Source of the DNA: an uncultured bacterium
Lineage (GTDB): Bacteria; Hinthialibacterota; Hinthialibacteria; OLB16
Assembly: GCA_964481775.1 (NCBI GenBank)
Contig: CAYZUX010000023.1
Coordinates: 1-40,334 of the forward strand
DNA: 40,334 bases
Direction of reading: 5' to 3'
The position numbers were made by a program, and so were the translations under genes. The notes beneath the pieces are model-generated. The model was not told where the DNA came from and searched no databases. It saw only the letters and a program-made list of their open reading frames with translations. Positions 25,378 to 37,824 of this stretch are shown in pieces. Each line of letters starts with the position of its first letter. Position 1 is the first letter of the stretch.

Positions 25378-25433
25378 GCGGATTCAGTTTATTCATTTGG
25401 ACATAAAGAATGAGGAATGGAATAAGGATAACT

Positions 25434-26369
25434 ATGAATTCGTCCGTCTCAAATGGCTCGTGTCTTGCCCGCGTACGAGCCTATTGTCCACGTGAAGGTG
25501 GTTCAACGCAAAGAATTGCGAGGCAAATTCTTGAACACCCACAGGATGTTCTTCCAATGTCGATTGTCCAAATTGCAGGGGTTTGTGAAACCAGCCCCTC
25601 AACAGTGACACGTTTCTGCAGGATTCTGGGTTACTCAGGGTTCAAGGAATTCCAGCTCGATCTGGCGACAACGCTTGCTAACTATAGTCCTGATGTTGAA
25701 GAAAGTTTCGACAAGTCCGATTCGCCAGGTAGCATTATCAGGCGTGTATTTGAGCGTAATAAGCAAAGTCTGGAGGATACCCTGTCCCTGCTTGATGAAA
25801 AAACGATGGACAGGGTGGCTATTGCCTTGACAAGAGCAAGACGGATTTATCTGCTTGGGATCGGTGGTTCCGGTCTGGTGGCAAGGGAAGCGGCCCAGCG
25901 CTTTATGAGTCTGGGTTTGACTGCAATCGCTGTCTTCGATCCCTATGATCAGGTGTTCGCAACAAGTAATGTCGGGCGAGAAGATGTCATTTTTGGTATC
26001 AGTCATACGGGGCGGACTCTGTCAGTTCTCGAGGGAATCCGTGAAGCACGAAGACATCATGCCCATGTCATTGTAGTCACCAACTACCCTGATTCTCCTT
26101 TGGCAAAGGAATCTCATGAACGCCTGATCACCTCTTATCGGGAACACCGTTTTAATGCCGCTGTATCCTCCTCGAGAATAGCGCAAATGTGCATTTTTGA
26201 CGCCCTCTATTTTATGGTCGGAAGTCGTACTTCCGAGGAGGCAAGAAGGCTTGCAAAATCAGCCGAAGAGAGGGTGCAACGGTTGTTGAGAAATCGATAT
26301 TCACGGACATCCGTTGCAACAAAAGACCGCTCTGTACCTTCAGAGGAAAAAATGATGAGTGATGAATGA
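25434..26369 (+). CDS. RpiR/MurR-family transcriptional regulator (N-terminal HTH_6 + C-terminal SIS sugar-phosphate-binding domain)
   Basis: The ORF track starts at 25410. The Met at 25434 has AAGGATAA 4 nt upstream. The HTH is …STQRIARQILEHPQDVLPMSIVQIAGVCETSPSTVTRFCRILGYSGFKEFQ. The SIS domain is …RRIYLLGIGGSGLVAREAAQRFMSLGL…VIFGISHTGRT…. Confidence 0.8.
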   Translation: MNSSVSNGSCLARVRAYCPREGGSTQRIARQILEHPQDVLPMSIVQIAGVCETSPSTVTRFCRILGYSGFKEFQLDLATTLANYSPDVEESFDKSDSPGSIIRRVFERNKQSLEDTLSLLDEKTMDRVAIALTRARRIYLLGIGGSGLVAREAAQRFMSLGLTAIAVFDPYDQVFATSNVGREDVIFGISHTGRTLSVLEGIREARRHHAHVIVVTNYPDSPLAKESHERLITSYREHRFNAAVSSSRIAQMCIFDALYFMVGSRTSEEARRLAKSAEERVQRLLRNRYSRTSVATKDRSVPSEEKMMSDE

Positions 26370-26472: not shown

Positions 26473-27822
26473 ATGTATACGCGTTACTATGATCCAGAAA
26501 TCTTCATCCAGATGCTGGATGGCATTGATCTGGATGATCATGTGGTTGCTTCATATTATCTGAAAGACCGGATAGAGGGACAGAAGTGGCTTGACCATTT
26601 TGCTCTTATCCAGGCCATGGGGCTTGAGGGTTCCACGGGAACATGGGAAAAAGTGGAGGAAGACACCGCTGATGTGCGAATTGCGATGTCCAGCAAGATG
26701 GTGGGATACCACGAGATTCCGGCCGAGGATCCTTACACGAAGTCAGCCGTGGTTCAGTTGGCATTTCCGATCCGGGCATGGGGTGATAACCTCCCGATGA
26801 TGTTACTTGCAATTGCTGGTAATTGCTTTGCCTATTCAAAAAATATCATGTTGACAGACCTCTTTATAGGAAAGAACCTGTTAAAAATGTTTAAGGGGCC
26901 GAAGTTTGGTGTTCAAGGTGTTCGTGAACTGACTGGTGTTAAAGACCGTCCACTCTCTCTTCACATCATCAAGCCGAAGATGGGGATGACACCGGAACAG
27001 ACCGCCAACCAGGTGGCACAAACAGCTGCTGGCGGAGCGGACATGTGTAAAGATGATGAGATGCTGGCCGATGCATACAATAATACTATGGAACAACGTC
27101 TTCCTCTGGTTATGGAAGCGATCAACCGTGCCGCTGATAAAACGGGCAAGAAGATGATTTACCTTTGCAGCATCACTGATGAAAGTCAGAAAATGATCGA
27201 TAAGGCGAAAAAAGCTATAGAGCTCGGGGCAAATGGACTTCTCGTGACCTATTCAGCCGGTCTTGCAGCCTTGCGGAAACTGACTTCTGATCCTGATATC
27301 ACAGTTCCGGTAATGCTCCATGCCTCTCATATGATCGCCATGATGAAACAAATTGCCTGGCCTGTGCTGGCGAAACTGTGTCGTCTGTGCGGGGCCGATC
27401 TCATGTTGACACCGACGATCTGGTCATCCATTCCGATGGTATCAATGGAGGAGGGAATTCGGACTTCTTTCATGCAGCTGGCTCCATGGGGACATATCAA
27501 ACCAACTTTCCCGATGCCATGTGCCGGTGTCTATCCTGGGCTGGCTCCAATCATTATCGGCGAGTATGGAACTGATATCGTAATCCCTGCGGGTGGCGGT
27601 ATGCTTGGTCATCCAGATGGTTACACAGCGGGTGCGAAAGCTTGGAGACAGGCAATCGATGCGGCACTGTCCAATGAGAACTTTATCGATTACGCCAAAA
27701 AACCAGAAAACAAGGAATTAAGACGCGCGATCGAGAAATGGGGCTATATTGAACGACCCAAATCACCTTGGTTGCGTGTGGCTCCTGAGTTTCATCCAAA
27801 AACGATGAAGTTTGATGACTGA
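26473..27822 (+). CDS. RuBisCO large-subunit homologue, RuBisCO-like protein (form IV-like; not predicted to be a carboxylase)
   Basis: The ORF track starts at 26425. The Met at 26473 (MYTRYYDP…) has an AGGAGGAA RBS. A by-eye alignment to form I RbcL gives [11 protein letters not shown] vs STGTWTTVWTD; GNCFAYS…[37 protein letters not shown] vs GNVFGF…[47 protein letters not shown] vs GGLDFTKDDE; and …[27 protein letters not shown] vs …[26 protein letters not shown]. Positions equivalent to H294/R295, H327, K334 and S379 appear substituted (LHASH, [16 protein letters not shown], PCAGV). Confidence 0.8.
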   Translation: [449 protein letters not shown]

Positions 27823-27893
27823 TGCCGCCTGCATCCTTATGGATAGTTGAGTGAAATGAGGATGATAACGTCTGGATGATGGGGAGCAAATTG

Positions 27894-29378
27894 ATGGATC
27901 GGAATTATTACCTTGCGATAGACCTGGGTGCCGAAAGTGGTCGCGCTGTAATAGGGTCGATTGATGAGGGAAAACTGATGGTTGAGGAAATCCATCGATT
28001 CCCGAATGCTCCCGTAACCATATGTGGAACATTGTACTGGGACATCTTGAATATCTATGCCAATATCATTGAATCCCTGGATCGGTACCAACAACGATTT
28101 GGGGATTCAGTGAATGGCATTGGCATCGACAGCTGGGCAGTTGACTTTGGCTTGATTGATCGATATGGGAACCTTCTTCAAAATCCAGTCTGTTATCGTG
28201 ACTCCCGGACAGAAGGGATGTTTGAAAGAGTTGAGAAATCACTGTCAAAGAGAGAGGTATTTGACATTACTGGGATAGGTCTTATACCGATCTATACTCT
28301 CTGTCAGTTGAAATCATTGCGCATTCACCAGCCGGAATTGTTGAAATCAGCTGAAAAGCTCCTTTTGATCCCGGATCTTCTGAATTATTTTCTGTGCGGT
28401 AGTGTCGGCTGCGAACAGACAAATGCTATCACCACACAGCTTTATGACCCGCGCCAGGGTACCTGGAGTCATAAGATTTTTGACCTGATGGATTTTCCGT
28501 ATTCCATAATGGCCGATATCAACGCTCCTGGTACCTATTTGGGGGAACTGAGAGATTCCATCAAAGTCCAAACAGGTCTACGAAATGCTCCGGTAGTTTC
28601 TGTTTGCTCACATGATACTGGTTCTGCAGTTGCTGCTGTTCCAGCAGCAGTGGAAAATTATGGTTTTATCAGTTCCGGAACATGGTCTGTTGTCGGAATG
28701 ATGACGGGTGAGTTGATAACCACTGACGAGGCATTTTCCGCCAATGTCTGCAACGAACTGACAGCGGAGGGATTATTCCTGTGCCGTAACATAATGGGTT
28801 TGTGGTTGTTACAGCAAGCTCGCGCTGCATGGAGACGCAAAGGCATATCATATAGTTATGACGATCTGGTTCATTTGGCAGGTGAGGCTCCCCGTTCAGG
28901 ACCTCTTGTAATGGTTGATGATCCGACGTTCCTTCATCCAACAGACATGGTGGAGGCAATTCGTGTGTTTTGCCAGAAGACAGGACAGAAATCGATTTCA
29001 TCCGATGCTGGCTTTGTCTGCTGTATACTTGAAAGTCTGGCATTGGCGTACCGTCAGGCGCTAAACCAGATTCATCGCATCACCGGTCGTAGAAGTGAAA
29101 TCCTCCACATCGTTGGAGGGGGTGCTCTAAACTCTGTTTTGTGTCAATATACTGCAAACGCCACGGGAATAACCGTTTTGGCAGGTCCTCAGGATGCGAC
29201 TGCAACAGGCAATATCCTGGTTCAGGCACTATCACGCGGTGATTTGAAATCAATCAAGGAAATCCATGAAGTTGTTCGATCCTCAAGTCGTTTGGTTCAA
29301 TATGAACCATGTGACAATAAATATTGGGAAGATCGAATTGCCTACTACAATAAAATAATCAAAACACCTGAAGATTGA
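27894..29378 (+). CDS. FGGY-family carbohydrate kinase, rhamnulokinase (RhaB)-like
   Basis: The ORF track starts at 27876. The Met at 27894 has a GGGAG RBS. The N-terminus MDRNYYLAIDLGAESGRAVIG…EIHRFPNAP…GTLYWDI and IDSWAVDFGLIDRYGNLL match the RhaB pattern (VAVDLGASSGRVM…EIHRFNN…WDVD; IDTWGVDF). The length (~494 aa) fits. Confidence 0.75.
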   Translation: MDRNYYLAIDLGAESGRAVIGSIDEGKLMVEEIHRFPNAPVTICGTLYWDILNIYANIIESLDRYQQRFGDSVNGIGIDSWAVDFGLIDRYGNLLQNPVCYRDSRTEGMFERVEKSLSKREVFDITGIGLIPIYTLCQLKSLRIHQPELLKSAEKLLLIPDLLNYFLCGSVGCEQTNAITTQLYDPRQGTWSHKIFDLMDFPYSIMADINAPGTYLGELRDSIKVQTGLRNAPVVSVCSHDTGSAVAAVPAAVENYGFISSGTWSVVGMMTGELITTDEAFSANVCNELTAEGLFLCRNIMGLWLLQQARAAWRRKGISYSYDDLVHLAGEAPRSGPLVMVDDPTFLHPTDMVEAIRVFCQKTGQKSISSDAGFVCCILESLALAYRQALNQIHRITGRRSEILHIVGGGALNSVLCQYTANATGITVLAGPQDATATGNILVQALSRGDLKSIKEIHEVVRSSSRLVQYEPCDNKYWEDRIAYYNKIIKTPED

Positions 29379-29409: not shown

Positions 29410-30396
29410 GTGCTTGCTGGACATTCATTCGGAGCTTGTTTACCCACATTCGGGAGTTGCGCGGATCGCTACTGCCTTGGCGGTTATGGTGGTGGGGGGG
29501 AAACCATCAAGGAGATGATAGACCTTTCCCTGAAGGTTAAAGGAATAGATGGGCTTGAACTGGTTGGTAATTGGCATGTCAATGATAACAATATACGTGA
29601 AATTGGAGCCATGTTCAAAGACAGGAATCTCAAAATTCCGATGTTGGTTCCAGACCTTTGGACACAGGCTAAATGGGGCAAGGGTAGTCTTGCTGCACCC
29701 GACGCAGTTACCCGGCAAGCGGCAATTGATGAAGTCCGCAAGGTGATGGATTGGGCGGCAGAGTTGAATTGTCCTTATGTGGATGTTTGGCCGGGTCAGG
29801 ATGGTTATGATTATTGCTTCCAGACTGATCACCTTGCTGCTTGGGAATGGCTACATGATGGTCTGGCAGCCTGTGCTTCTCATAATGATAAGGTAAAAGT
29901 TCTGGTCGAATACAAACTTAAGGAGCCAAGGACACATATTATTGTCAACAGTGCCGCAAAAACTCTCCTGCTCCTGGAAGATCTTCCCAATGTTGGCTGT
30001 CTACTGGATATTGGACATTCACTTGCCGCGGGAGAAAACATCGCGGAAGCTGCTTCACTACTAGCCCGTTATGGGAAGCTGGATTACCTTCACCTCAATG
30101 ATAACTATCGGTCTTGGGATGATGACATGATGCTTGGCTCGGTTCATCTTGTCGAGACCCTCGAACTGGCTTATTGGTTGAAACGATTGAACTATAATGG
30201 TTGGCTCACTCTCGATATTTTCCCTTACCGGGAGGATGGTGTTCGTGCCGCAACCCAGTGTTACCGGTGGATGGAAGCTCTGTTTTCATGTATTGAGCGT
30301 GTCGGGATGGACGAAATTGGATCAGTCATTAAGACAGGCGATGGATGTTCGGCAGTTGAAATTGTTCGGCGAGCATTTGGCCTGGAAAAAGACTAA
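29410..30396 (+). CDS. Xylose-isomerase-like TIM-barrel sugar (phosphate) isomerase/epimerase
   Basis: GTG start at 29410 with a strong AGGAGGAAAGAAAG RBS. The motifs …CLLDIGHSLAAGENI… and …LDYLHLNDN… are typical of the AP-endonuclease-2/xylose-isomerase-like (beta/alpha)8 family, which includes ketose 3-epimerases, OtnI-type isomerases and L-rhamnose-isomerase relatives. Confidence 0.65.
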   Translation: MLAGHSFGACLPTFGSCADRYCLGGYGGGGETIKEMIDLSLKVKGIDGLELVGNWHVNDNNIREIGAMFKDRNLKIPMLVPDLWTQAKWGKGSLAAPDAVTRQAAIDEVRKVMDWAAELNCPYVDVWPGQDGYDYCFQTDHLAAWEWLHDGLAACASHNDKVKVLVEYKLKEPRTHIIVNSAAKTLLLLEDLPNVGCLLDIGHSLAAGENIAEAASLLARYGKLDYLHLNDNYRSWDDDMMLGSVHLVETLELAYWLKRLNYNGWLTLDIFPYREDGVRAATQCYRWMEALFSCIERVGMDEIGSVIKTGDGCSAVEIVRRAFGLEKD

Positions 30397-30579: not shown

Positions 30580-31053
30580 ATGGTAGTTGCAATCAAAGTA
30601 CCAGACATGGGAACAACTGTGGATACAGTTATTTTAACAACCTGGCTGGTCAAAGAAGGCGAACATATTTCTCGTGGAGATCCAATTGCGGAAATTCAGA
30701 CTGATAAAGCGAATGTACAGCTTGAATCCGTTGCAGAAGGGATTCTCTTGAAGTGTATTGTGGAGGAGAATACAGAGCTTTCGGTAGGCCAAATTCTTGC
30801 CTACATTGGTTCGGCTGGGGAAATTATCGATGATGCGGCAATACCGGATTCCTCCTGTAATCCTGTTAAAAATGAGCAGTTTACTACAAGTCCAGAATCC
30901 TCATCGATAATATCAGTTCATGAAAACCCAACTGGTGAAGCTGCTGGTGATTCAGGTAAGTCTAATGACGGGAAAAAACGGGTCAAGGGTTCAACTCCGG
31001 TTTCGAAGATGGTCCGTAACCTGGCCCGGAAACACCAATTGGATTTGAATTAA
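30580..31053 (+). CDS. Lipoyl-domain protein with linker and the N-terminal half of a peripheral-subunit-binding domain (E2-like, lacking any catalytic acyltransferase domain); reads in frame into E1-alpha across a TAA
   Basis: The lipoyl-lysine motif is IAEIQTDKANVQLES within MVVAIKVPDMGTTVDTVILTTWLVKEGEHISRGD…. A Pro/Ser/Ala-rich linker follows, then GSTPVSKMVRNLARKHQLDLN-stop. The PSBD consensus (…RKLA.[23 protein letters not shown]) continues directly after the stop as VRGTGKGGSITREDV in the same frame. Confidence 0.75.
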   Translation: MVVAIKVPDMGTTVDTVILTTWLVKEGEHISRGDPIAEIQTDKANVQLESVAEGILLKCIVEENTELSVGQILAYIGSAGEIIDDAAIPDSSCNPVKNEQFTTSPESSSIISVHENPTGEAAGDSGKSNDGKKRVKGSTPVSKMVRNLARKHQLDLN

Positions 31054-31098: not shown

Positions 31099-32100
31099 AT
31101 GCGTTTGGTGAACTCCACATCACCTGTGACTCCCATACCTGATGAAAACGATCCTTCATTTCTACTTGATCTTTACCGGAAAATGCTTCTGATCCGAAGG
31201 TTTGAAGAGCGCGTCAAATACCTTTTCCTTGAAGGTATCATGCCGGGTACCATTCATCAGTATCAGGGTGAGGAGGCTGTGGCGGTAGGAGTATGTGCCA
31301 CACTTAACCGGGATGACATCATAACAAGCACGCACCGTCCGCATGGTCACGCAATAGCCAAGGGGATTCCCATCAATTCATTGCTCAATGAATTGTTCGG
31401 AAAGACAACGGGTTGTTGTCGTGGTAAGGGAGGTTCGATGCATGTGGGCGATCTGGAACTGGGCATGGTTCCTGCCATTGCCATTGTGGGTGGAAATGTC
31501 CCACTGGCAACAGGTTGTGCTCTTGCATTTAAGATGAGGGGAGAATCGAGGGTAGCGGTTTCCTTCATGGGCGACGGAGCCATTAATGAAGGTGCCTTTC
31601 ATGAGGGTGTGAACATGGGTGCTATCTGGTCACTTCCTGTAATCTACGTTATCGAAAATAACCTGTACTCAGCATCGACACCGATTGGGAGCACAGTTAA
31701 GTTGTCAAAACTCTCTGATCGGGCCTTAGGCTATGGAATCCCTGGTGTCACTATTGATGGAAATGATGTCATGGAGGTCTACCGTGCAAGCCGTGAAGCT
31801 GTGGACCGTGCTCGAAAGGGGAAAGGTCCTACGCTGATCGAAGCCATCACCTATCGAATAACTGGTCACTCACGACGCGATCCCTGTAATTACCAGCCGG
31901 AAGAAGAGCGCAATGAGGCGATAAAGAAAGAACCAATTGGGCGATTTGAAAAACACCTGATTGAAACTGGCCTTATCAACCGGGATCAACTGAACCAGAT
32001 TAGCAAGGAAATAGATTTAGAGATTGAAGAGGCTGTTCAGGAAGCCATAAATGGACCAGATCCAAAACCAGAAGACGCTTTACAAGATGTCTTTGTGTGA
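31099..32100 (+). CDS. TPP-dependent 2-oxoacid/acetoin dehydrogenase E1 component alpha subunit
   Basis: …LYRKMLLIRRFEERV…IHQYQGEEAVAVGVCATLNRDDIITSTHRPHGHAIAKG…. The TPP motif is GDGAINEGAFHEGVNMGAIWSLPVIYVIENNLY. It is in the same frame as the upstream lipoyl ORF, with a GAGGA RBS before the ATG at 31099. Confidence 0.85.
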   Translation: MRLVNSTSPVTPIPDENDPSFLLDLYRKMLLIRRFEERVKYLFLEGIMPGTIHQYQGEEAVAVGVCATLNRDDIITSTHRPHGHAIAKGIPINSLLNELFGKTTGCCRGKGGSMHVGDLELGMVPAIAIVGGNVPLATGCALAFKMRGESRVAVSFMGDGAINEGAFHEGVNMGAIWSLPVIYVIENNLYSASTPIGSTVKLSKLSDRALGYGIPGVTIDGNDVMEVYRASREAVDRARKGKGPTLIEAITYRITGHSRRDPCNYQPEEERNEAIKKEPIGRFEKHLIETGLINRDQLNQISKEIDLEIEEAVQEAINGPDPKPEDALQDVFV

Positions 32101-32115
32101 GAGAAGGAAAGAATT

Positions 32116-33132
32116 GTGTCAAAAAAATCGATTGCTGAAGCCTTGCGTGAAGGTTTGCGTGAAGAAATGTTACGCGATGAGAGGGTTTTCTGTATTGGTG
32201 AGGATATTGCCATCCCAGGCGGATGGGGAGGAGCCTTCACCGTTACCCTGGGTTTGGAAAGCGATTTTGCTGACCGGATGATTAATACACCCATATCAGA
32301 AAATGGTGCGTTTGGTGTGGCTTGTGGAGCAGCGATGATGGGGATGAGACCAATCGCCGATGTTCAATATGGGGATTTCCTGTTCTGCGCCATGGATCAG
32401 GTTGCCAACAACATTGCAAAATTACGATATATGTCTGGAGGCAAGCTCGAGGTCCCAATCGTCATGCGTGCACCTGTCGGAGCCACCGGACGCGGAGCAC
32501 AACACGCTCAGAATCTCGAATCTATCTTTCTCTCCATTCCCGGAATCAAAATAGTGTGTCCCGCGACTGCTTATGATGCCAAGGGCTTACTAAAAGCAGC
32601 TGTTCGTGATAATAATCCTGTTCTTATGTTTGAACATAAGTTACTTTATGGCTCAAAAGGGGCACGGGCTGAATCGGGCTCACTGGATGCATCCAGTGAA
32701 ATCCCGGATCATGATTATATTGTACCCATTGGCAAAGGTATTGTTCGACGGGAAGGCAGTGATGTGACCATTGTCGGGACCCTGTTGATGATGCATTACG
32801 CTTTGAACGCCGCGGAAGTACTTGCAGCTGAAGGAATAAGCGCGGAAGTTATCGATCCCAGATCCCTGAATCCTTTTGATTGGCCTATCCTGGAGAAATC
32901 GGTCAGGAAAACCACTCGGTTGGTGACCGTCGAGGAAGGTCCATGCTTTGGTGGAATTGGTGCGGAAATATCAGCAACTGTTTCCGAACGATTGGGGGAT
33001 TACCTGACTGCCCCGATTTCTCGTGTGGGTGCACCCAATATTCCCGTACCCTTTGCCCCCATCATGGAAAACTATTATCGTCCAGATGTAAATAAGATCA
33101 TTGAAACTGTCCGGCAAGTGTGTGATAATTGA
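32116..33132 (+). CDS. E1 component beta subunit (transketolase-like pyrimidine-binding and C-terminal domains)
   Basis: GTG start with a GAAGGAAAG RBS, 15 nt after the E1-alpha stop. Motifs include …VFCIGEDIAIPGGWGGAFTVTLGLESDFADRMINTPISENGAFGVACGAAMMGMRPIADVQYGDFL… and …HAQNLESIFLSIPGIKIVCPATAYDAKGLL…. Confidence 0.85.
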   Translation: MSKKSIAEALREGLREEMLRDERVFCIGEDIAIPGGWGGAFTVTLGLESDFADRMINTPISENGAFGVACGAAMMGMRPIADVQYGDFLFCAMDQVANNIAKLRYMSGGKLEVPIVMRAPVGATGRGAQHAQNLESIFLSIPGIKIVCPATAYDAKGLLKAAVRDNNPVLMFEHKLLYGSKGARAESGSLDASSEIPDHDYIVPIGKGIVRREGSDVTIVGTLLMMHYALNAAEVLAAEGISAEVIDPRSLNPFDWPILEKSVRKTTRLVTVEEGPCFGGIGAEISATVSERLGDYLTAPISRVGAPNIPVPFAPIMENYYRPDVNKIIETVRQVCDN

Positions 33133-33175
33133 TCAAATGCCAGATTTTTTAATATTATTCCGTTAGGATACTGAA

Positions 33176-33796
33176 ATGACTGAACTGCGTAGTTTTATCA
33201 TACTTGATAATCTTCAGGAACAGTTGGCCTCATTCATGGCATCGACTGTCCAGGGGTATATGCCAGTGGCAGGAATGGCTTCCTTGTTTGTGGAGGTAGC
33301 ACCGGGTATGGAGATTGTCAGATTGCTGGATCGAGCTGTAAAAGCAACCGGTGTCCGTCCCGCGATTCAGGTTGTCGAGAGAAACTTTGGTGCTTTAGAA
33401 GTTCATTCAGATTCCCAAGCCGATGTTCGCCAGGCAGGCCTGGCAATTCTGGAGGCACTGGGAATGACGGAGGAGGACAGGATGAAACCAAGAATCGCTT
33501 CGTCCACGGTCATCCGGAAGGTGGATCCCTATCATGCCTCATTAATTAACAAAAGTCGTTCAGGTTCTTTATTGCTTGCCGGTCAGACTTTGTTTATTCT
33601 CGAGACACAACCAGCCATGTATGCAGTGCTGGCGTCCAATGAAGCGGAAAAGGCCAGCAAAGTGACCCTGGTGGATATACGTCCATTTGGAAATTATGGA
33701 CGATTGTACCTGGGGGGGGATGAGGCTGATGTCGTGGTGGGAAGTCAGGCCGCGATAAACTCGTTAATCAATCTTTCTGGGAAAGAAACCAACTGA
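33176..33796 (+). CDS. BMC-T shell protein (tandem BMC-domain, probably permuted PduB/EutL-like)
   Basis: Two BMC-like halves. The second ends …[35 protein letters not shown], which matches the canonical BMC C-terminal pattern G.V..V.GDV.AV..A. Confidence 0.65.
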
Positions 33797-33810: not shown

Positions 33811-34116
33811 ATGGCGGATGCACTTGGGATGATCGAAACACAAGGATTTGCAGCGATGGTGGAGGCCTCGGATGCGATGGTCAAGGCTGCCAAGGTTGAG
33901 CTTGTGGGATATGAGAAGACAGGTGGAGGCTATGTTACAGCGATTATCAGGGGAGATGTGGCCGCTGTTAAAGCCGCCTGTGAGGCGGGAGAACGGGGTG
34001 CGCGGGGAGTGGGTCAAGTCATATCAATCCATATCATCCCACGACCCCATACGAATGTAGACCTGGTTCTTCCTTTAGGCCGCAAAGAGGAAGCCGCCAA
34101 AGAAGCCGGAAAGTAG
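33811..34116 (+). CDS. BMC-H shell protein (PduA/EutM-type hexamer)
   Basis: [64 protein letters not shown] is a textbook Pfam00936 single-domain sequence with a short charged C-terminal tail. Confidence 0.9.
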
Positions 34117-34123
34117 AATTTCC

Positions 34124-34420
34124 ATGCAGATTGGCAGAGTGATTGGAACTGTGGTATCCACCGCTAAAGAACCCATGTTGGAAGGCCGGAAGCTGCTGGT
34201 GGTTCGTTCCCTCGATCTGAATGCGAAGGCGACAACAGGTTATGTGGTGGCAGTTGATTCGGTGGATGCGGGGATTGGTGATGTGGTCCTTGTCGCTCAG
34301 GGAAGTTCAGCCCGTTTGACAGGTGCCACAAAGGACCGTCCATGCGATGCGGTGATAATCGGGATTGTGGATTCATGGGATGTTGGCGGCGTAACCAAAT
34401 ACAGGAAAAGTGAAGAATGA
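34124..34420 (+). CDS. BMC-P vertex protein (EutN/PduN/CcmL family)
   Basis: MQIGRVIGTVVSTAKEPMLEGRKLLVV…GYVVAVDSVDAGIGDVVLVAQGSSARL…AVIIGIVDSWDV follows the EutN/CcmL pattern. Its stop overlaps the AldDH start (ATGA at 34417-34420). Confidence 0.85.
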   Translation: MQIGRVIGTVVSTAKEPMLEGRKLLVVRSLDLNAKATTGYVVAVDSVDAGIGDVVLVAQGSSARLTGATKDRPCDAVIIGIVDSWDVGGVTKYRKSEE

Positions 34421-35793
34421 CCCAGCGACAGCCAGTGTCAAGCCAGTCCTTGTGTTCTCCCTCCGTCTCCAGTGAGGGACCATGTTTTCCCTGTGTCGAT
34501 GCAGCAGTCACACGTGCATGCACAGCTTTCGAGGCTATGTCTGGTATGAACCTCGATACTCGTATTCGTGTGGTGGCTGCCATGCGCCAGGCAGCCAGGA
34601 ATCATGTCAAGGAATTAGCTTCACTGGCGGTCGAGGAAACGGGGCTTGGAAGGGTTGAGGATAAGGTTCGAAAAAACCTGCTGGTCACTATCAAAACTCC
34701 CGGTCCGGAATTCCTGGAACCTGTCGCTCAAAGCGGCTCCCGTGGTTTGATGTTGATGGAACGGGCGCCTTATGGAGTGATAGCATCCATTATTCCCGTT
34801 ACCAATCCCACTACCACGGTAATCAACAATGGGATAGCCATGATCAGCGCAGGGAACGCAGTGGTTTTCAATGCTCATCCCGGGGCCAAACGATGTTCCA
34901 ACCGTTGCATAGAAATTCTTAACGAAGCGATTATGGGCGCAGGGGGTCCCCCTGATCTGTTGACGGCGATTCCAGATCCAACGATCGGGACAGCACAGGC
35001 GTTAATGCGCCATACGAAGATCGCTTTGCTGTGTGTCACGGGGGGACCTGGAGTTGTACGCGAAGCCATGAATTGTGGCAAGAAGGTGATCGCCGCGGGA
35101 GCAGGAAATCCTCCCGCGGTCGTCGATGAAACCGCTGACATAAGTAATGCGGCAAATTCCATTGTCGCTGGTGCTTCTTTGGATAACAACATCATCTGCA
35201 CGGACGAAAAGGTCGTGGTAGTTGTCGATTCCATCGCTGATGATCTGAAGCGTCATATGCTGGCCCTGAATTGCGTTGAAGTTTCCGGAATTGATTTGCA
35301 GCGAGTATGTCGCTCGATCTTCAAATCCATTGAGGGCCGTTTTGGAACAATAAATACGCAAATGGTGGGTAAGGATGCCAGTATGATTCTGTCCGGGGCA
35401 GGGATCAATTGCCCCGCAGAAACACGTTTGGCTCTTTGCGAGGTTGACCGGGATCACCCGCTCGCCTGGACTGAGCAACTGATGCCAATTCTTCCGATTG
35501 TCCGAGCCAAGGACGTGGATGAGGCCATTTCCCTGGCGGTTGCTTATGAAAATGGACGGCGCCATACAGCGACCATGCATTCCACGAACATAGAAAAGTT
35601 GAATAAGATGGCTCGGATAGCCAACTGTTCAATCTTTGTCATGAATGGACCCTCCTTTGCCGGCCTGGGAATGGGTGGCGAGGGATATGCCTCGTTTACA
35701 ATAGCCAGTCCGACTGGAGAAGGTCTGACAAGTCCGATCAGTTTTACACGTGAGCGCCGTTGTACTCTGGTCGACACGCTAAGAATCGTGTAG
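34417..35793 (+). CDS. CoA-acylating aldehyde dehydrogenase (PduP/EutE-like BMC signature enzyme) with ~40-aa N-terminal extension
   Basis: …ERAPYGVIASIIPVTNPTTTVINNGIAMISAGNAVVFNAHPGAKRC…; the catalytic Cys context is LDNNIICTDEKVVVV. The N-terminal MTQRQPVSSQSLCSPSVSSEGPCFPCVDAAVTRACTAFEAMSGM precedes the conserved core. Confidence 0.85.
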   Translation: MTQRQPVSSQSLCSPSVSSEGPCFPCVDAAVTRACTAFEAMSGMNLDTRIRVVAAMRQAARNHVKELASLAVEETGLGRVEDKVRKNLLVTIKTPGPEFLEPVAQSGSRGLMLMERAPYGVIASIIPVTNPTTTVINNGIAMISAGNAVVFNAHPGAKRCSNRCIEILNEAIMGAGGPPDLLTAIPDPTIGTAQALMRHTKIALLCVTGGPGVVREAMNCGKKVIAAGAGNPPAVVDETADISNAANSIVAGASLDNNIICTDEKVVVVVDSIADDLKRHMLALNCVEVSGIDLQRVCRSIFKSIEGRFGTINTQMVGKDASMILSGAGINCPAETRLALCEVDRDHPLAWTEQLMPILPIVRAKDVDEAISLAVAYENGRRHTATMHSTNIEKLNKMARIANCSIFVMNGPSFAGLGMGGEGYASFTIASPTGEGLTSPISFTRERRCTLVDTLRIV

Positions 35794-35923: not shown

Positions 35924-36481
35924 TTGGCTGTACTTGGGATGGTGGAGTTTAACAGAATTGCTACTGGCATTCATGCAACAGATGCCATGGTGAAGGCAGC
36001 TGAAGTTGAACTTATCGAATCCAGACCGATTACACCGGGCAAGTATATCTCGCTCGTGACTGGAGATGTGGCTTCTGTGAGTGCTTCCGTCAAAGCGGGT
36101 ATTGAAACAGCGGGTCTTGATGGAGTGATTGAGTCCTTTGTGCTCCCAAACCTTCATCCGCAAATTTTGCCCGTGATGCAAGGATACAACCCGGTTCCTG
36201 ATAAGGAGGCGGTCGGTATACTCGAAACAACTGGTGTTGCCGCTATTATTACAGCAACAGATGCAGCTCTAAAGGAATCTCCCGTGATTCTCGTTCGTCT
36301 TCATCTGGGTCTTCACATTGGAGGAAAGGGTTACGCAGTACTTGTGGGTGAGATTGCGGATATCGAGTCTTCAATCATGGCGGGAACCCGACAGGCTGGA
36401 AATCAACTTATCGATAAGAAAATTATTCCGAATCCTTATGAGGAGATATACCAATACCTCATGAAGAAACCTCACTGGTAA
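35924..36481 (+). CDS. Fused double BMC-domain shell protein (non-permuted tandem, BMC-T-like pseudohexamer)
   Basis: Domain 1 is MAVLGMVEFNRIATGIHATDAMVKAAEVELIESRPITPGKYISLVTGDVASVSASVKAGIE. Domain 2 is AVGILETTGVAAIITATDAALKESPVILVRLHLGLHIGGKGYAVLVGEIADIESSIMAG. Both are BMC-H-like. Confidence 0.75.
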   Translation: MAVLGMVEFNRIATGIHATDAMVKAAEVELIESRPITPGKYISLVTGDVASVSASVKAGIETAGLDGVIESFVLPNLHPQILPVMQGYNPVPDKEAVGILETTGVAAIITATDAALKESPVILVRLHLGLHIGGKGYAVLVGEIADIESSIMAGTRQAGNQLIDKKIIPNPYEEIYQYLMKKPHW

Positions 36482-36497
36482 GGATGATAAACTCGAT

Positions 36498-36782
36498 ATG
36501 ATTCCTGCACGAGTTATTGGCAGAATGGTTCTCAATCAAACTCTGCCGGCATTTCAGGGAGTTCCCTTTCTTTTGGTGGAGCCCATTAATGAAAAAATGA
36601 TCACTTCGGGGGATTATATGGTTGTCTGTGACGCTATTGGTGCCAATCTGGGTGAAACGGTATTTCTCGCCCAGGGACGGGAGGCGACTTTCAATCTTCC
36701 CGACCCATTCAATCCGGCCGACATGACGATAATTGCCATAATTGACCAAATAACGACCGGTCAGGATTCTCAGAAGGAATAG
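36498..36782 (+). CDS. BMC-P vertex protein paralogue 2 (EutN/CcmL family)
   Basis: MIPARVIGRMVLNQTLPAFQGVPFLLVEP…GDYMVVCDAIGANLGETVFLAQG…MTIIAIIDQI. Confidence 0.8.
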   Translation: MIPARVIGRMVLNQTLPAFQGVPFLLVEPINEKMITSGDYMVVCDAIGANLGETVFLAQGREATFNLPDPFNPADMTIIAIIDQITTGQDSQKE

Positions 36783-36790
36783 TTCAAACA

Positions 36791-37063
36791 GTGAAAATTG
36801 CACGTGTTGTGGCCCATGTTGTCTCAACCCAGAAGGTGATCAAGTATCACGGGATGAAAACATTGCTGGTAAAACCGTTACGTCTGGATGGAAGTGAGGA
36901 GGGCTCCACTTTTGTTGCCATAGACCGGGTACAGGCTGGGATCGGTGATATGGTATTATTAATGCAGGAGGGCAGCTCTGCTCGTACAATGTTTTATGAT
37001 GAACAAATGCCTGCTAGAAGTGTGATTGTCGGGATTATTGATCACCTGGAGATTAATGAATGA
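36791..37063 (+). CDS. BMC-P vertex protein paralogue 3 (EutN/CcmL family)
   Basis: MKIARVVAHVVSTQKVIKYHGMKTLLVKPL…STFVAIDRVQAGIGDMVLLMQEGSSAR…VIVGIIDHLEI. Its stop overlaps the aldolase start (ATGA at 37060-37063). Confidence 0.85.
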   Translation: MKIARVVAHVVSTQKVIKYHGMKTLLVKPLRLDGSEEGSTFVAIDRVQAGIGDMVLLMQEGSSARTMFYDEQMPARSVIVGIIDHLEINE

Positions 37064-37824
37064 TGACTGAGCTCGACATAAGAAAGGCAATATGTGAGGC
37101 CGGTAAAAGGCTTTATCTAAAAAATCTTGTTGCTGCGACTGATGGAAATATCAGTGTTCGGATTGGACCTGATCGATATCTTTGCACCCCAAGCGGAGTT
37201 TCGAAATATGATATGGCCCCTCATCATATTCTTATTGCTGACGGGCGAGGGAAACGGATATCTGGCGAGGGTAAAGTAACCTCCGAGTTTTTTACTCACC
37301 TTGCGGCGTATGAAGAACGAGCTGATGTGAGGGCTGTGGTTCATGCCCACCCACCAAAGGCCGTCGGATTTTCACTGGCGGGTGTTTCCATGGCGGAGTG
37401 TGTATTACCGGAAGTGGTTTACACGATAGGCGGTATTCCAACCTCCACCTATGCGACACCAGCTACTAAAGAAGGAGGGGAATCCATCAGGGAATTGATC
37501 CGCAAGTGTGATGCTCTGGTGATGGACCGTCATGGCGCAATTACTGTCGGAGTCGATGTTTATGACGCTCTTTTCAAAATGGAAAAGATCGAACATGCGG
37601 CGGATACTCTACTGGTGGCGCATCTATTAGGAAAAATTCGGACATTGGATTCAGAACAAATCATAAAATTACAGGGAATCCGGAAGTCCTATGGCGTATC
37701 AGGATATGCATATCCCTGTCATGAAAAGTCCTCGACACAATCTGAAAAAAATAAAGACGGAAACGAATCCTCAGACTTGGATAATATTATTGAGGATACC
37801 TTGCGAATTCTGGGCGGTGGGTAA
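37060..37824 (+). CDS. Class II (metal-dependent) aldolase, L-fuculose-/L-rhamnulose-1-phosphate aldolase family, with C-terminal encapsulation-peptide-like extension
   Basis: …ATDGNISVRIGPDRYLCTPSG… and the zinc-ligand motif VVHAHPPKAV, with Glu in TSEFFTHLAAYEE. Beyond the ~210-aa core lies a low-complexity linker (KSSTQSEKNKDGNESS) and an amphipathic DLDNIIEDTLRILGGG tail. Confidence 0.85.
   Translation: MMTELDIRKAICEAGKRLYLKNLVAATDGNISVRIGPDRYLCTPSGVSKYDMAPHHILIADGRGKRISGEGKVTSEFFTHLAAYEERADVRAVVHAHPPKAVGFSLAGVSMAECVLPEVVYTIGGIPTSTYATPATKEGGESIRELIRKCDALVMDRHGAITVGVDVYDALFKMEKIEHAADTLLVAHLLGKIRTLDSEQIIKLQGIRKSYGVSGYAYPCHEKSSTQSEKNKDGNESSDLDNIIEDTLRILGGG

What the first reader, a model, noticed from the sequence alone, without database searches (positions are those of the whole stretch)
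26473..27822. RuBisCO-like protein (non-carboxylase active site) encoded inside a microcompartment-associated sugar-phosphate operon
The 449-aa product aligns by eye along its whole length with RuBisCO large subunits. The metal and carbamate site is retained: KPK (K175/K177), KDDE (K201/D203/E204), N123 (GNCFA), the STGTW loop and the C-terminal GGG.LGHP segment. The residues that bind the second phosphate and complete carboxylation chemistry (the H294/R295 pair, H327, K334, S379) appear replaced. That retained-site/lost-site pattern is the signature of form IV RuBisCO-like proteins that do enolisation or isomerisation chemistry on ketose-1-phosphates or acid-sugar phosphates. Examples are MtnW-type enolases, the Rhodospirillum 5-methylthioribulose-1-P 1,3-isomerase, and the apionate-pathway decarboxylase/transcarboxylase. 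Here it sits between an RpiR sugar-phosphate regulator and a RhaB-like ketose 1-kinase, and directly upstream of an aldolase/aldehyde-dehydrogenase metabolosome. I know of no described BMC locus in which a RuBisCO-like protein is a component; this is recollection, not a search. A plausible role is isomerisation or epimerisation of a ketose-1-phosphate (for example interconverting 6-deoxy-ketose-1-P epimers, or carbonyl migration) so that the single encapsulated class II aldolase can cleave it to DHAP plus an aldehyde.
Basis: partly seen in the sequence, partly recalled or inferred. Interest (0 to 1): 0.88.

Follow-up and report, generated by a model that had tools for sequence, protein, structure and literature searches.

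The report
RuBisCO-like isomerase in a sugar-cleavage cassette
The gene encodes a non-carboxylating RuBisCO relative from a widespread, unstudied and very conserved clade; in other genomes it almost always sits with a sugar kinase, an isomerase and a thiamine/lipoate-dependent cleavage enzyme and only rarely with a microcompartment, which points to an undescribed sugar-breakdown route rather than a microcompartment component.

Summary
The ORF at 26473-27822 (+) is a real, full-length RuBisCO-like protein (form IV). Thirteen of 21 canonical active-site positions are kept: E60, T65, W66, N123, K175, K177, K201, D203, E204, H294, G381, G403 and G404. T173, R295, H298, H327, S379 and G380 are replaced, mostly by apolar residues, and loop 6 with K334 is deleted, so it cannot carboxylate.

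Among 60 related genome loci with enough flank, XI-like TIM barrel (49), E1 alpha/beta (47 each), lipoyl/E2 (39), RpiR (39) and rhamnulokinase-like FGGY kinase (32) recur. Microcompartment shell genes (3) and class II aldolase (5) are rare. The shell link is tight only in the window's own Hydrogenedentota-like lineage. No cassette enzyme has an encapsulation-type extension.

My best reading is a cytosolic enolising isomerase. It would act on a monophosphorylated ketose with an apolar (deoxy or methylthio) tail made by the isomerase and kinase, and feed a TPP/lipoate E1-E2 that cleaves the sugar oxidatively. The chemistry is inferred, not shown.

The clade fails every named equivalog threshold and is auto-annotated as MtnW, although the MtnW catalytic Lys is Asn here. 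I found no literature on this cassette.

The parts
25410..26369 (+). RpiR/SIS-family sugar-phosphate-responsive regulator
   Evidence: Pfam HTH_6 plus SIS. An RpiR gene is adjacent to the RLP in 39 of 60 related loci.
26473..27822 (+). RuBisCO-like protein (form IV), 449 aa; proposed enolising isomerase of the cassette
   Evidence: Thirteen of 21 canonical active-site positions are kept and loop 6 with K334 is deleted. It scores below every NCBIfam equivalog cut-off.
27876..29378 (+). FGGY kinase, rhamnulokinase-like (ketose 1-kinase type)
   Evidence: Pfam FGGY_N and FGGY_C. TIGR02627 rhamnulokinase scores 416 bits against a cut-off of 528. An FGGY kinase is present in 32 of 60 loci.
29410..30396 (+). 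Xylose-isomerase-like TIM barrel (sugar isomerase or epimerase of unknown specificity)
   Evidence: Pfam PF01261. The best PDB match is 3KTC, a structural-genomics 'xylose isomerase', at E 5e-59; it is distant from XylA and RhaI. Present in 49 of 60 loci.
30580..31053 (+). Lipoyl-domain protein: a truncated E2 with a lipoyl domain, a linker and the first half of a peripheral-subunit-binding domain, but no acyltransferase core
   Evidence: Pfam Biotin_lipoyl at residues 4-76. The sequence ends in ...VSKMVRNLARKHQLDLN. Other loci carry a full E2 (26 loci) or a lipoyl-PSBD-E1alpha fusion.
31099..32100 (+). TPP-dependent E1 alpha subunit (PDH/acetoin-dehydrogenase type)
   Evidence: Pfam E1_dh, E 1.6e-88. 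TIGR03182 scores 351.5 against a cut-off of 393.85. Present in 47 of 60 loci. Its identity to the window copy tracks RLP identity, r = 0.58.
32116..33132 (+). E1 beta subunit
   Evidence: Pfam Transket_pyr and Transketolase_C. Present in 47 of 60 loci. Identity tracks RLP identity, r = 0.61.
33176..33796 (+). BMC-T (double-stacking, CcmP / HO-5816-like) shell protein; lineage-specific neighbour module
   Evidence: NF053796 scores 265 bits, below the cut-off of 340. PDB matches: CcmP 237 bits, HO-5816 212 bits.
33811..34116 (+). BMC-H shell hexamer
   Evidence: Pfam BMC, E 1.4e-29.
34124..34420 (+). BMC-P pentamer 1
   Evidence: Pfam EutN_CcmL.
34417..35793 (+). Acylating aldehyde dehydrogenase (EutE/PduP type)
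   Evidence: NF011927 scores 610 bits against a cut-off of 403. It lacks the N-terminal amphipathic helix seen in the L082 and L040 orthologues.
35924..36481 (+). BMC-T (tandem, PduT-like; a Thr sits at the place where I recall the PduT Fe-S pore Cys)
   Evidence: Two Pfam BMC domains. PDB matches 3nwg and PduT. Sequence; the position of the PduT pore Cys is from my own knowledge and was not aligned here.
36498..37063 (+). BMC-P pentamers 2 and 3 (36498-36782 and 36791-37063)
   Evidence: Pfam EutN_CcmL.
37060..37824 (+). Class II aldolase-family protein with a C-terminal encapsulation-peptide-like helix
   Evidence: Pfam Aldolase_II at residues 10-184 of 254. No NCBIfam equivalog is reached. 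The tail ...DLDNIIEDTLRILGGG is conserved in kind in L082 and L040 and absent from the aldolase of L086, a locus with no shell genes in the stretch read.

Best explanation
**What it is.** The gene encodes a member of an uncharacterised, unusually conserved clade of form IV RuBisCO-like proteins.

**Proposed role (inferred).** It works in the cytosol as the enolising step of a self-contained sugar catabolic cassette under an RpiR regulator.
1. The XI-like TIM barrel isomerises a free sugar to a ketose.
2. The rhamnulokinase-like FGGY kinase phosphorylates that ketose once.
3. The RLP binds the ketose phosphate through its intact Mg2+/carbamate site (K201, D203, E204). It uses the RuBisCO-type base and acid set (carbamate, K175, K177, H294, N123) to abstract a proton next to the carbonyl. 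It then reprotonates elsewhere, so the carbonyl moves along the chain or a centre is epimerised.
4. The rearranged alpha-hydroxyketone is cleaved oxidatively by the TPP-dependent E1 alpha/beta. E1 passes the acyl half to a lipoyl domain (and, where a full E2 is present, on to CoA) and releases the other half as an aldehyde or aldose phosphate.

**Substrate class (inferred).** The residues that bind RuBP's second phosphate are replaced by apolar ones: I173, A295, M298, L327 and C379. The far end of the substrate is therefore probably a deoxy-methyl or methylthio group. Candidates are 6-deoxyhexulose-1-P, 5-deoxy-ribulose-1-P or 5-methylthio-ribulose-1-P.

**Most specific version.** This would be a Rhodospirillum-type 1,3-carbonyl migration giving a 1-deoxy-ketose phosphate (DXP-like), which E1-E2 would split into acetyl-CoA plus triose phosphate.

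**The microcompartment.** In the window's lineage this cassette has become contiguous with an aldolase/aldehyde-dehydrogenase BMC operon. The BMC probably uses the same kinase product or detoxifies the aldehyde. The RLP itself is not a BMC component.

**Shown versus inferred.**
- Shown: the fold, the residue pattern, the gene neighbourhood statistics and the lack of a terminal extension.
- Inferred: the substrate, the reaction, and the order RLP then E1.
For: - **Fold and active site:**
- **Distinct clade:** the family scores below all equivalog cut-offs (MtnW 275.5 versus 409; form III 234.4 versus 497; OiaX 149.8 versus 700). It forms its own branch with its own motif in the tree of 50%-identity representatives.
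- **Family-wide neighbourhood:** of 60 loci, 49 have XI-TIM, 47 E1a, 47 E1b, 39 lipoyl/E2, 39 RpiR and 32 FGGY, across at least a dozen phylum-level labels.
- **Co-inheritance with E1:** RLP identity correlates with E1a and E1b identity (r about 0.6) but not with FGGY or RpiR identity.
- **Deeper triad:** RLP with FGGY, often with XI-TIM too, recurs in sister clades at 35-46% identity.
- **Apolar pocket:** the replacements at the P2-phosphate site resemble those of MtnW, whose substrate tail is methylthio.
- **1-deoxy-pentulose chemistry nearby:** a subset of loci add neighbours that fit this chemistry. An LsrF equivalog thiolase occurs in nine loci (483.8 bits versus a cut-off of 297), an Rpe-like epimerase in five, and an SDR resembling the dehydrogenase half of RhaD-ADH in six.
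- **Under selection:** the RLP is the most conserved gene of the operon, 88% amino-acid identity to L082 against 51-73% for the other cassette enzymes, with pN 0.08.
- **Not a BMC cargo:** the cassette enzymes of the BMC-linked loci are no longer than those of loci without a BMC. A terminal helix was looked for, and found, only on the aldolase tail and the AldDh N-terminus.
Against: - No biochemical data exist for any member. All are from MAGs or metagenomes.
- The order of steps and the substrate are inferred from gene content only.
- E1/E2 could be an ordinary pyruvate dehydrogenase placed there because the pathway ends in pyruvate. E1 beta passes a PDH 'subfamily' cut-off.
- FGGY is detected in only 53% of loci.
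- The E2 core is missing in the window and in several other loci, so the fate of the acyl-lipoyl product is unclear.
- Other recurrent neighbours hint at different substrates, such as O-methyl sugars or apiose. These are URO-D-like methyltransferases (about 20 loci), occasional B12-binding proteins (4 loci) and apiosidase-like GHs (5 loci).
- LsrF and E1/E2 in the same locus would be partly redundant under the DXP-like model.
Confidence: 0.5

Rival explanations
1. First reader's model. The RLP is a functional part of the microcompartment pathway. It epimerises or isomerises a 6-deoxy-ketose-1-phosphate so that the single encapsulated class II aldolase can cleave it to DHAP plus an aldehyde, which the AldDh then oxidises.
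For: - In the window, L001 and L082/L083 the RLP cassette and the shell/AldDh/aldolase genes form one same-strand array with gaps of 7-183 nt.
- A second, rearranged co-occurrence exists in a Spirochaetales MAG (L040).
- The kinase is rhamnulokinase-like.
- The aldolase carries an encapsulation-type tail.
Against: - Only 3 of 60 family loci have shell genes and 5 of 60 have a class II aldolase within 10 kb.
- RLPs at 84% identity lack a BMC nearby.
- In L040 the two operons are separated by a response regulator, an unknown gene and an MscS channel, and they have different regulators.
- The model does not explain the near-universal E1/lipoyl partner.
- The RLP has no encapsulation peptide.
Confidence: 0.12
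2. MtnW-type enolase. The protein tautomerises a 2,3-diketo-1-phosphate (DK-MTP-1-P or its 5-deoxy analogue) in a methionine-salvage-like or SAM-by-product-salvage pathway, as JGI's automatic annotation says.
For: - The best NCBIfam and PDB matches are MtnW.
- The apolar residues at the P2 site and the shortened loop 6 resemble MtnW.
- Sister clades sit with a HAD phosphatase, an aminotransferase and class II aldolase-family (MtnB-like) genes, which is reminiscent of mtnX, mtnE and mtnB.
- An aminotransferase occurs in 5 family loci.
Against: - The position of the MtnW catalytic base (Geobacillus K98) is Asn in all 49 family members, and K177 is Lys rather than Met as in Geobacillus MtnW; across the MtnW representatives this position varies and is never Lys.
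- Scores are far below both MtnW equivalog cut-offs.
- The MtnW clade is a separate branch.
- Family loci lack an MtnB-type dehydratase (8%). No MtnK, MtnA or MtnD equivalent showed up among the recurrent neighbour clusters that were annotated; these were not searched for directly.
Confidence: 0.12
3. The RLP cassette and the BMC operon are functionally unrelated neighbours in this lineage. They lie in a glycan-utilisation region where catabolic operons are packed together.
For: - Co-occurrence is rare across the family.
- The window is dense in glycoside hydrolases, transporters and regulators.
- The pattern scans give no operon signal either way between E1 beta and the first shell gene. Promoter-like hexamers lie at 33101-33158, but the counts do not exceed those in shuffled sequence.
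Against: - The 44-nt gap and shared strand are conserved in three loci at 86-88% RLP identity, while the flanking enzymes have diverged to 51-73%.
- An aldolase-type BMC needs an isomerase and a ketose-1-kinase, which only the cassette provides locally.
- A second, independent arrangement exists in Spirochaetales (L040).
Confidence: 0.25
4. Acid-sugar-phosphate decarboxylase or transcarboxylase (OiaX/OiaT-like), or a true carboxylase or oxygenase.
For: - Apiosidase-like GH genes directly follow the cassette in 5 loci.
- RLPs of the apionate pathways are precedents (Carter 2018, as cited in PMC6389311 and PMC10176493).
- The near-complete RuBisCO-type catalytic set, including N123, K175, K177, H294 and E60, is retained.
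Against: - OiaX scores 149.8 against a cut-off of 700.
- The kinase here is FGGY, not the DUF1537 type that I recall from those pathways (own knowledge).
- K334 and loop 6, R295 and H327 are missing, which excludes RuBP carboxylation.
- Form I, II and III equivalog cut-offs are not met.
Confidence: 0.06

Closest known systems
MtnW / YkrW 2,3-diketo-5-methylthiopentyl-1-phosphate enolase (Geobacillus kaustophilus 2OEK, Bacillus subtilis 2ZVI)
   Same: - It is the best sequence match (E 5e-60, about 31-32% identity, TM 0.81-0.89).
- Loop 6 is shortened and lacks K334.
- The KCX/D/E metal site and H294 are kept.
- The P2-phosphate residues are replaced by small or apolar ones.
   Different: - The catalytic Lys at the N123 position is Asn here.
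- K177 is Lys here, not Met as in Geobacillus MtnW; it varies among MtnW representatives and is never Lys.
- E60/T65/W66 are retained here. The MtnW-clade representatives have Gly at position 60.
- A conserved tail of about 22 residues extends past the point where Geobacillus MtnW ends.
- The genomic partners are FGGY, XI-TIM and E1/E2, not the mtn genes.
- Scores are below the equivalog cut-offs.
Rhodospirillum rubrum RLP, 5-methylthio-D-ribulose-1-phosphate 1,3-isomerase (IV-DeepYkr; Imker 2008, Erb 2012; own knowledge and the citations seen)
   Same: - The proposed chemistry is the same: enolisation-driven carbonyl migration on a ketose-1-phosphate with an apolar tail, giving a 1-deoxy-ketose-5-phosphate type product.
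- The R. rubrum enzyme gives a mixture of C3 epimers (own knowledge). That would fit the Rpe-like epimerase seen in some loci.
   Different: - No reference sequence was available here, so clade membership is untested.
- I know of no cupin methylsulfurylase partner in these loci.
- The downstream enzyme here is a TPP/lipoate E1-E2.
Acetoin / pyruvate dehydrogenase complexes (E1 alpha-beta, E2, lipoate)
   Same: - The E1 alpha and beta subunits are PDH-type (203 bits to human E1 alpha).
- Many loci have a full E2 with lipoyl, PSBD and catalytic domains.
   Different: - E1 alpha is below the PDH equivalog cut-off.
- The genes are embedded in a sugar-kinase/RLP operon.
- E2 is often reduced to a lipoyl domain or fused to E1 alpha.
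- The substrate is presumably a ketose phosphate rather than pyruvate (inference).
Aldolase-type metabolosomes: HO type II, PVM and PVM-like BMCs (Sutter 2021, PMC8217296)
   Same: - A BMC-P triplet, a CcmP/HO-5816-like BMC-T and an acylating AldDh are present.
- A pfam00596 aldolase with a C-terminal extension follows two BMC-P genes.
   Different: - The catalogue lists no RLP, E1 or lipoyl genes for these types.
- The window's AldDh lacks the N-terminal EP said to be constant in HO.
- The tandem BMC-T is PduT-like rather than HO-T1-like.
- No phosphotransacylase gene is present among the annotated genes of the array.

Membership tests
RuBisCO superfamily, form IV (RuBisCO-like protein) | Full-length large-subunit fold (N-domain plus TIM barrel) | tested here: met
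   Both Pfam domains are nearly end to end. The AF2 model has TM about 0.8 to RLP and form III structures.
RuBisCO superfamily, form IV (RuBisCO-like protein) | Carbamylated-Lys / Asp / Glu metal site retained, but one or more carboxylase-essential residues lost | tested here: met
   K201, D203 and E204 are invariant. R295A, H298M, H327L and S379C are replaced, and loop 6 with K334 is deleted.
Bona fide RuBisCO (forms I-III) | All canonical catalytic and RuBP-binding residues conserved; equivalog score reached | tested here: not met
   Eight of 21 positions are changed. Form III scores 234.4 against 497, PRK04208 216.5 against 438, and form II 109.4 against 489.
MtnW DK-MTP-1-P enolase | Catalytic Lys at the position of RuBisCO N123 (K98 in Geobacillus) | tested here: not met
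   The position is Asn in the window and in all 49 aligned family members. The MtnW-clade representatives all have Lys.
MtnW DK-MTP-1-P enolase | NCBIfam equivalog cut-off | tested here: not met
   NF007095 scores 275.5 against 409, and TIGR03332 scores 227.6 against 513.6.
MtnW DK-MTP-1-P enolase | Clustering with mtnK/A/B/X/D | tested here: not met
   A class II aldolase/MtnB-family gene occurs in 5 of 60 loci. The partners are FGGY, XI-TIM and E1/E2 instead. MtnK, MtnA and MtnD were not searched for directly.
R. rubrum-type MTRu-1-P 1,3-isomerase (IV-DeepYkr) | Phylogenetic placement with Rru_A1998 / RPA2169 | not testable with these tools
   No reference sequence could be retrieved. 3QFW was not among the best 60 sequence matches or the best 50 fold matches.
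OiaX / OiaT apionate-pathway RLPs | Equivalog score; DUF1537-type kinase partner | tested here: not met
   NF042437 scores 149.8 against 700. The neighbouring kinase is FGGY.
BMC cargo / BMC-locus component | Encapsulation-peptide-like terminal extension | tested here: not met
   The RLP is 449 aa in the BMC-linked loci and 447-454 aa in the others, with the same termini. The aldolase does have such a tail.
BMC cargo / BMC-locus component | Consistent co-localisation of homologues with shell genes | tested here: not met
   Three of 60 loci have shell genes within 10 kb. Whole genomes were not examined.
HO-type BMC (neighbouring module) | BMC-P triplet, CcmP-like BMC-Tdp, AldDh, pfam00596 aldolase after two BMC-P genes | tested here: met
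   the type is described.
HO-type BMC (neighbouring module) | AldDh with an N-terminal EP; shell proteins in HO clades | tested here: inconclusive
   The EP-like helix is present in L082 and L040 but absent in the window. The BMC-Ts is closer to PduT than to HO-T1. No shell-protein tree was made.
Pyruvate dehydrogenase complex | E1 alpha and E1 beta equivalog scores; E2 with catalytic core | tested here: inconclusive
   E1 alpha scores 351.5 against 393.85 (not met). E1 beta scores 339.6 against 321 for a 'subfamily' model (met). The E2 core is absent in the window.

The most novel reading that the evidence does not exclude
The RLP and the lipoate-dependent E1(-E2) together form a previously unknown, aldolase-independent route for deoxy-sugar catabolism. 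Candidate substrates are 5-deoxyribose, 5-methylthioribose or 6-deoxyhexoses. The RLP would migrate the carbonyl of the ketose-1-phosphate to give a 1-deoxy-ketose phosphate (DXP-like). A sugar-specific 'ketose-phosphate dehydrogenase complex' would then cleave that product oxidatively to acyl-CoA plus triose phosphate. In Hydrogenedentota this route has been wired to an HO-like microcompartment, which would give that enigmatic BMC class a substrate.
Probability: 0.3. Interest if true: 0.8.

Novelty: new variant of a known kind. Interest (0 to 1): 0.62.

Why it matters
- **Few RLP functions are known.** Those I know of are an enolase, a 1,3-isomerase, a decarboxylase, a transcarboxylase and an oxygenase. 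Each one revealed a new pathway.
- **This clade is large and unstudied.** At least 120 clusters at 90% identity are 69% or more identical to the window protein. They span a dozen or more phylum-level labels of mostly uncultured polysaccharide degraders and anaerobes.
- **It is conserved and mis-annotated.** Identity across phyla is 63-86%, and the proteins are systematically labelled as MtnW.
- **The partner is unprecedented for an RLP.** A constant link to a TPP/lipoate E1-E2 inside a sugar-kinase operon suggests a new way of breaking a sugar C-C bond.
- **It could bear on HO-like microcompartments.** The lineage-specific fusion offers a handle on their unknown substrate.
- **It is directly testable** with four or five recombinant proteins.

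Tried and rejected
- **Literature.** Nine full-text searches returned nothing on this cassette. They covered RLP with BMC, rhamnulokinase, FGGY, apiose, 5-deoxyribose/LsrF, candidate phyla, and all RLP papers since 2021.
- **Key RLP papers.** Tabita 2007, Imker 2008, Erb 2012 and Carter 2018 are not held. Statements about them rest on my own knowledge or on secondary citation.
- **Naming the sister clades.** Cluster-member names gave only MAG labels and Firmicutes names such as Anaerofustis, Desulfosporosinus and Lachnospiraceae. No named RLP clade emerged.
- **Promoter and terminator scan.** Counts in the operon equal those in shuffled sequence, so it says nothing about operon boundaries.
- **dN/dS.** Synonymous sites are saturated (pS above 0.75), so only pN is informative.
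- **Hidden EP on the AldDh.** I looked for an N-terminal EP in other reading frames of the window's AldDh and found none.
- **True carboxylase.** Considered and rejected.
- **MtnW.** Rejected because the catalytic Lys is missing.
- **OiaX.** Rejected on score and on kinase type.
- **Apiose as substrate.** The apiosidase-like GH is in 5 loci and the XI-TIM's best PDB match is an uncharacterised 'xylose isomerase' (3KTC). I could not build a chemically sensible role for an enolising RLP on a C3-tertiary branched ketose, so this is left open.
- **O-methyl sugar demethylation.** URO-D-like genes occur in about 20 loci and B12-binding proteins in 4. This is recurrent but not core.


Full report
**1. 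The observation**

The window has an ORF on the + strand whose ATG at 26473 gives a 449-aa product ending at 27822. Close homologues of 447-449 aa align over 99-100% of it, which supports that start.

Pfam finds both RuBisCO large-subunit domains almost end to end. The catalytic domain matches positions 2-299 of 299 at 151.6 bits, and the N-domain matches 11-114 of 120. An AlphaFold2 model built on 40 family members (pLDDT 81.8, pTM 0.83) superposes on solved RLPs and form III RuBisCOs with TM about 0.8 over 410-450 alignment columns. Homology therefore runs along the whole length, not just through motifs.

**2. The active site**

I aligned 49 family members with spinach RbcL. My recalled reference proved 475/475 identical to 8RUC. 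I also included the Geobacillus MtnW segment printed. The results are, in spinach numbering.

- Retained: E60, T65 (Thr or Ser), W66, N123, K175, K177, K201, D203, E204, H294, G381, G403 and G404.
- Changed: T173 to Ile, R295 to Ala (variable: A/G/P/N), H298 to Met, H327 to Leu, S379 to Cys (variable: C/A/S/G) and G380 to Ala.
- Loop 6 is about 14 residues shorter. No Lys occurs in the stretch after beta-strand 6, so K334 is lost.

The enzyme cannot be a RuBP carboxylase. It does keep the whole metal/carbamate site and, unusually for an RLP, the N-domain residues and N123.

**3. Which RLP is it?**

It reaches none of the NCBIfam equivalog thresholds:

| Model | Score (bits) | Cut-off |
|---|---|---|
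| MtnW (NF007095) | 275.5 | 409 |
| MtnW (TIGR03332) | 227.6 | 513.6 |
| Form III | 234.4 | 497 |
| OiaX | 149.8 | 700 |

The best solved relatives are MtnW and form III, at about 30% identity.

I searched 1.84 billion representatives and built a neighbour-joining tree of 97 full-length ones, annotated with active-site motifs. The window protein falls in its own clade, with the motif ETWNIKKKDEH-AMLS-CAGGG at the 20 positions listed. Its sister groups are at 54%, 46% and 41% identity.

The MtnW clade is separate and always has Lys at position 123. Every member of the window clade has Asn there. The JGI annotation '2,3-diketo-5-methylthiopentyl-1-phosphate enolase' is therefore probably wrong. 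All members come from MAGs or metagenomes.

**4. Surroundings in the window**

The same strand carries these genes:

| Coordinates | Gene |
|---|---|
| 25410-26369 | RpiR regulator |
| 26473-27822 | RLP |
| 27876-29378 | Rhamnulokinase-like FGGY kinase (416 bits, cut-off 528) |
| 29410-30396 | Xylose-isomerase-like TIM barrel |
| 30580-31053 | Lipoyl-domain protein, 157 aa |
| 31099-32100 | E1 alpha |
| 32116-33132 | E1 beta |
| 33176-33796 | BMC-T (CcmP-like) |
| 33811-34116 | BMC-H |
| 34124-34420 | BMC-P |
| 34417-35793 | Acylating AldDh |
| 35924-36481 | BMC-T (PduT-like) |
| 36498-37063 | Two BMC-P |
| 37060-37824 | Class II aldolase |

The lipoyl protein ends in half a peripheral-subunit-binding domain, so it is a truncated E2. 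Gaps between genes are 7-183 nt or the genes overlap.

The aldolase has a C-terminal amphipathic tail (...DLDNIIEDTLRILGGG), as BMC cargo proteins do.

The layout resembles the HO type II BMC of the Sutter 2021 catalogue. Two features differ: the tandem BMC-T is PduT-like, and the window's AldDh lacks the N-terminal helix found in its orthologues. The catalogue lists PF00016 only for carboxysomes.

**5. The decisive test: what do homologues sit next to?**

A scan of one genome per species returned 78 loci with up to 10 kb on each side. They carry labels from Hydrogenedentota, Planctomycetota, Verrucomicrobiota, Kiritimatiellae, Victivallales, Spirochaetota, Armatimonadota, Omnitrophota, Acidobacteriota, Sumerlaeota, Latescibacterota, Chloroflexota, Atribacteria, Aerophobetes, Acidimicrobiia and others. 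I added five metagenome loci.

I ran tblastn with every window protein and made an independent ORF clustering. Counts for the 60 family loci with at least 6 kb of total flank are:

| Neighbour | Loci (of 60) |
|---|---|
| XI-like TIM barrel | 49 |
| E1 alpha | 47 |
| E1 beta | 47 |
| Lipoyl/E2 | 39 |
| RpiR | 39 |
| FGGY kinase | 32 |
| Class II aldolase | 5 |
| BMC shell proteins | 3 |
| AldDh | 3 |

The three BMC-linked loci are these:
- L001, a Hydrogenedentota MAG with 86% RLP identity and the same 15-gene order as the window.
- L082/L083, with 88% RLP identity and the same order.
- L040, a Spirochaetales MAG with 65% RLP identity. Here a DeoR-regulated BMC operon ending in aldolase and a PfkB kinase is separated from RpiR-RLP by a response regulator, an unknown gene and an MscS channel.

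RLPs at 84% identity (P0006, P0008) have the E1 genes but no BMC.

The E2 part varies. It is a full E2 in 26 loci, a lipoyl-only protein in some, and a lipoyl-PSBD-E1alpha fusion in others.

RLP identity to the window correlates with E1 alpha and E1 beta identity (r about 0.6). It does not correlate with FGGY or RpiR identity. The RLP is the most conserved gene of the operon: 88% identity between the window and L082, against 51-73% for the other cassette enzymes.

In sister clades at 35-46% identity, RLP plus FGGY recurs, often with an XI-TIM. The E1/E2 genes were seen there in only one of the eight contexts read, P0291.

**6. Interpretation**

The conserved functional unit is isomerase, kinase, RLP and a TPP/lipoate E1(-E2) under RpiR. 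The microcompartment is not part of it. None of the cassette enzymes in the BMC-linked loci is longer than its counterparts elsewhere, so nothing suggests encapsulation of the RLP.

The residue pattern points to RuBisCO-style chemistry on a monophosphate. The P1-phosphate glycines are kept. The carbamate, K175, K177, H294 and N123 are kept. The P2 site is replaced by I, A, M, L and C, which forms an apolar pocket like that of MtnW, whose substrate ends in a methylthio group. This is an inference from the residue pattern.

The most economical reaction is proton abstraction next to the C2 carbonyl followed by reprotonation elsewhere, meaning carbonyl migration or epimerisation. This is what the R. 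rubrum RLP does with 5-methylthioribulose-1-P (own knowledge). It is also what RuBisCO itself does as a side reaction (own knowledge).

A TPP E1 then fits as the enzyme that cleaves next to the new carbonyl, as acetoin dehydrogenase does (established enzymology). It would give an acyl-lipoyl and an aldehyde or aldose phosphate.

Extra neighbours in a subset of loci fit 1-deoxy-pentulose-phosphate intermediates:
- an LsrF equivalog thiolase in nine loci (483.8 bits, cut-off 297), which makes acetyl-CoA plus DHAP from a 1-deoxy-diketopentose phosphate;
- an Rpe-like epimerase in five loci;
- an SDR resembling the dehydrogenase half of RhaD-ADH in six loci.

Other recurrent neighbours keep different substrates open. 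These are URO-D-like methyltransferases, a few B12-binding proteins and apiosidase-like hydrolases.

In the window's lineage the cassette has been joined to an aldolase/AldDh BMC. The simplest reading is that the BMC aldolase draws on the same kinase product or that the BMC handles an aldehyde from this pathway. Mere adjacency is not excluded.

**7. Novelty and verdict**

I found no paper linking an RLP to FGGY kinases, to E1/E2 or to metabolosome loci. Recent surveys collapse RLPs as an outgroup.

I class this as a new variant of a known kind. It is an RLP, but from an unnamed clade with an unprecedented partner set.

The BMC-centred interpretation is mostly not supported. What replaces it is arguably more interesting and is directly testable.

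Noticed in passing
window 30580-31053: The E2 of the cassette is truncated. It has a lipoyl domain, a Ser/Pro-rich linker and only the first half of a peripheral-subunit-binding domain (ends ...VSKMVRNLARKHQLDLN), and E1 alpha starts 45 nt later. L082 has an 85-aa lipoyl-only protein, while L079 and L081 have lipoyl-PSBD fused to E1 alpha. How the acyl-lipoyl is discharged without an E2 core is unexplained.
   Followed up: partly
window 34417-34500: The window's AldDh begins with a Ser/Cys/Pro-rich stretch (MTQRQPVSSQSLCSPSVSSEGPCFPC). It lacks the N-terminal amphipathic encapsulation-type helix present in the L082 and L040 orthologues, and no such helix is hidden in another reading frame.
   Followed up: yes
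L011, L015, L028, L006, L046, L070, L030, L007, L037 (e.g. L011 5004-7409): A module adjacent to the RLP cassette, divergent from it in most of these loci, encodes an LsrF equivalog (3-hydroxy-5-phosphonooxypentane-2,4-dione thiolase, 484 bits against a cut-off of 297) in all nine loci. A ribulose-phosphate-3-epimerase-like protein accompanies it in five of them, and an SDR resembling the dehydrogenase half of bifunctional RhaD-ADH in six. It hints at 1-deoxy-pentulose-phosphate intermediates.
   Followed up: partly
about 20 family loci (e.g. L023 6695-7798, L015 18691-21001); L084 7180-8954; L088 3699-5819: URO-D/MtaA-like methyltransferase-family genes recur next to the cassette, up to three copies per locus. 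In four family loci and two sister-clade loci they come with B12-binding corrinoid proteins. This could point to demethylation of O-methyl or S-methyl sugars.
   Followed up: partly
L006 15698-17428, L003, L026 3339-4976, L038 19318-21123, L073 13061-14662: Apiosidase-like (PF13204, with DUF5060 in the one representative scanned, L026) glycoside hydrolase genes lie a few genes downstream of the cassette in five loci from different phyla, directly after it in L006.
   Followed up: no
window 27757-27822 (RLP residues 429-449): A C-terminal tail of about 22 residues extends past the point where Geobacillus MtnW ends. It carries family-invariant W433, R435, P438 and P442, and the model confidence is low there. 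It might close over the active site in place of the shortened loop 6, or contact a partner.
   Followed up: no
L086 2565-16751; L091 8001-13841; L087: Sister-clade RLPs (35-41% identity) sit with a HAD phosphatase, a ComB-like phosphatase, a class II aldolase-family protein, an aldehyde:ferredoxin oxidoreductase, a class III aminotransferase and an FGGY kinase. The gene set is reminiscent of an oxygen-independent methionine-salvage-like pathway.
   Followed up: partly
window 1901-24589 (minus strand): Upstream lies a block of large secreted or glycan-active proteins: MGH1/GH63-like and rhamnosidase-six-hairpin-like domains, and a NosD/beta-helix protein. It also holds an SSF transporter, a distant FucI/sulfoquinovose-isomerase-like protein (16409-17797), a prepilin-type N-methylation-motif protein and a sigma-54 activator. 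G+C falls from 0.54 to 0.38 around 18-20 kb.
   Followed up: no
family-wide (P0014, P0017 and others): JGI/IMG labels this whole clade '2,3-diketo-5-methylthiopentyl-1-phosphate enolase', although the MtnW catalytic Lys is Asn in every member. This is probably a propagated misannotation.
   Followed up: yes
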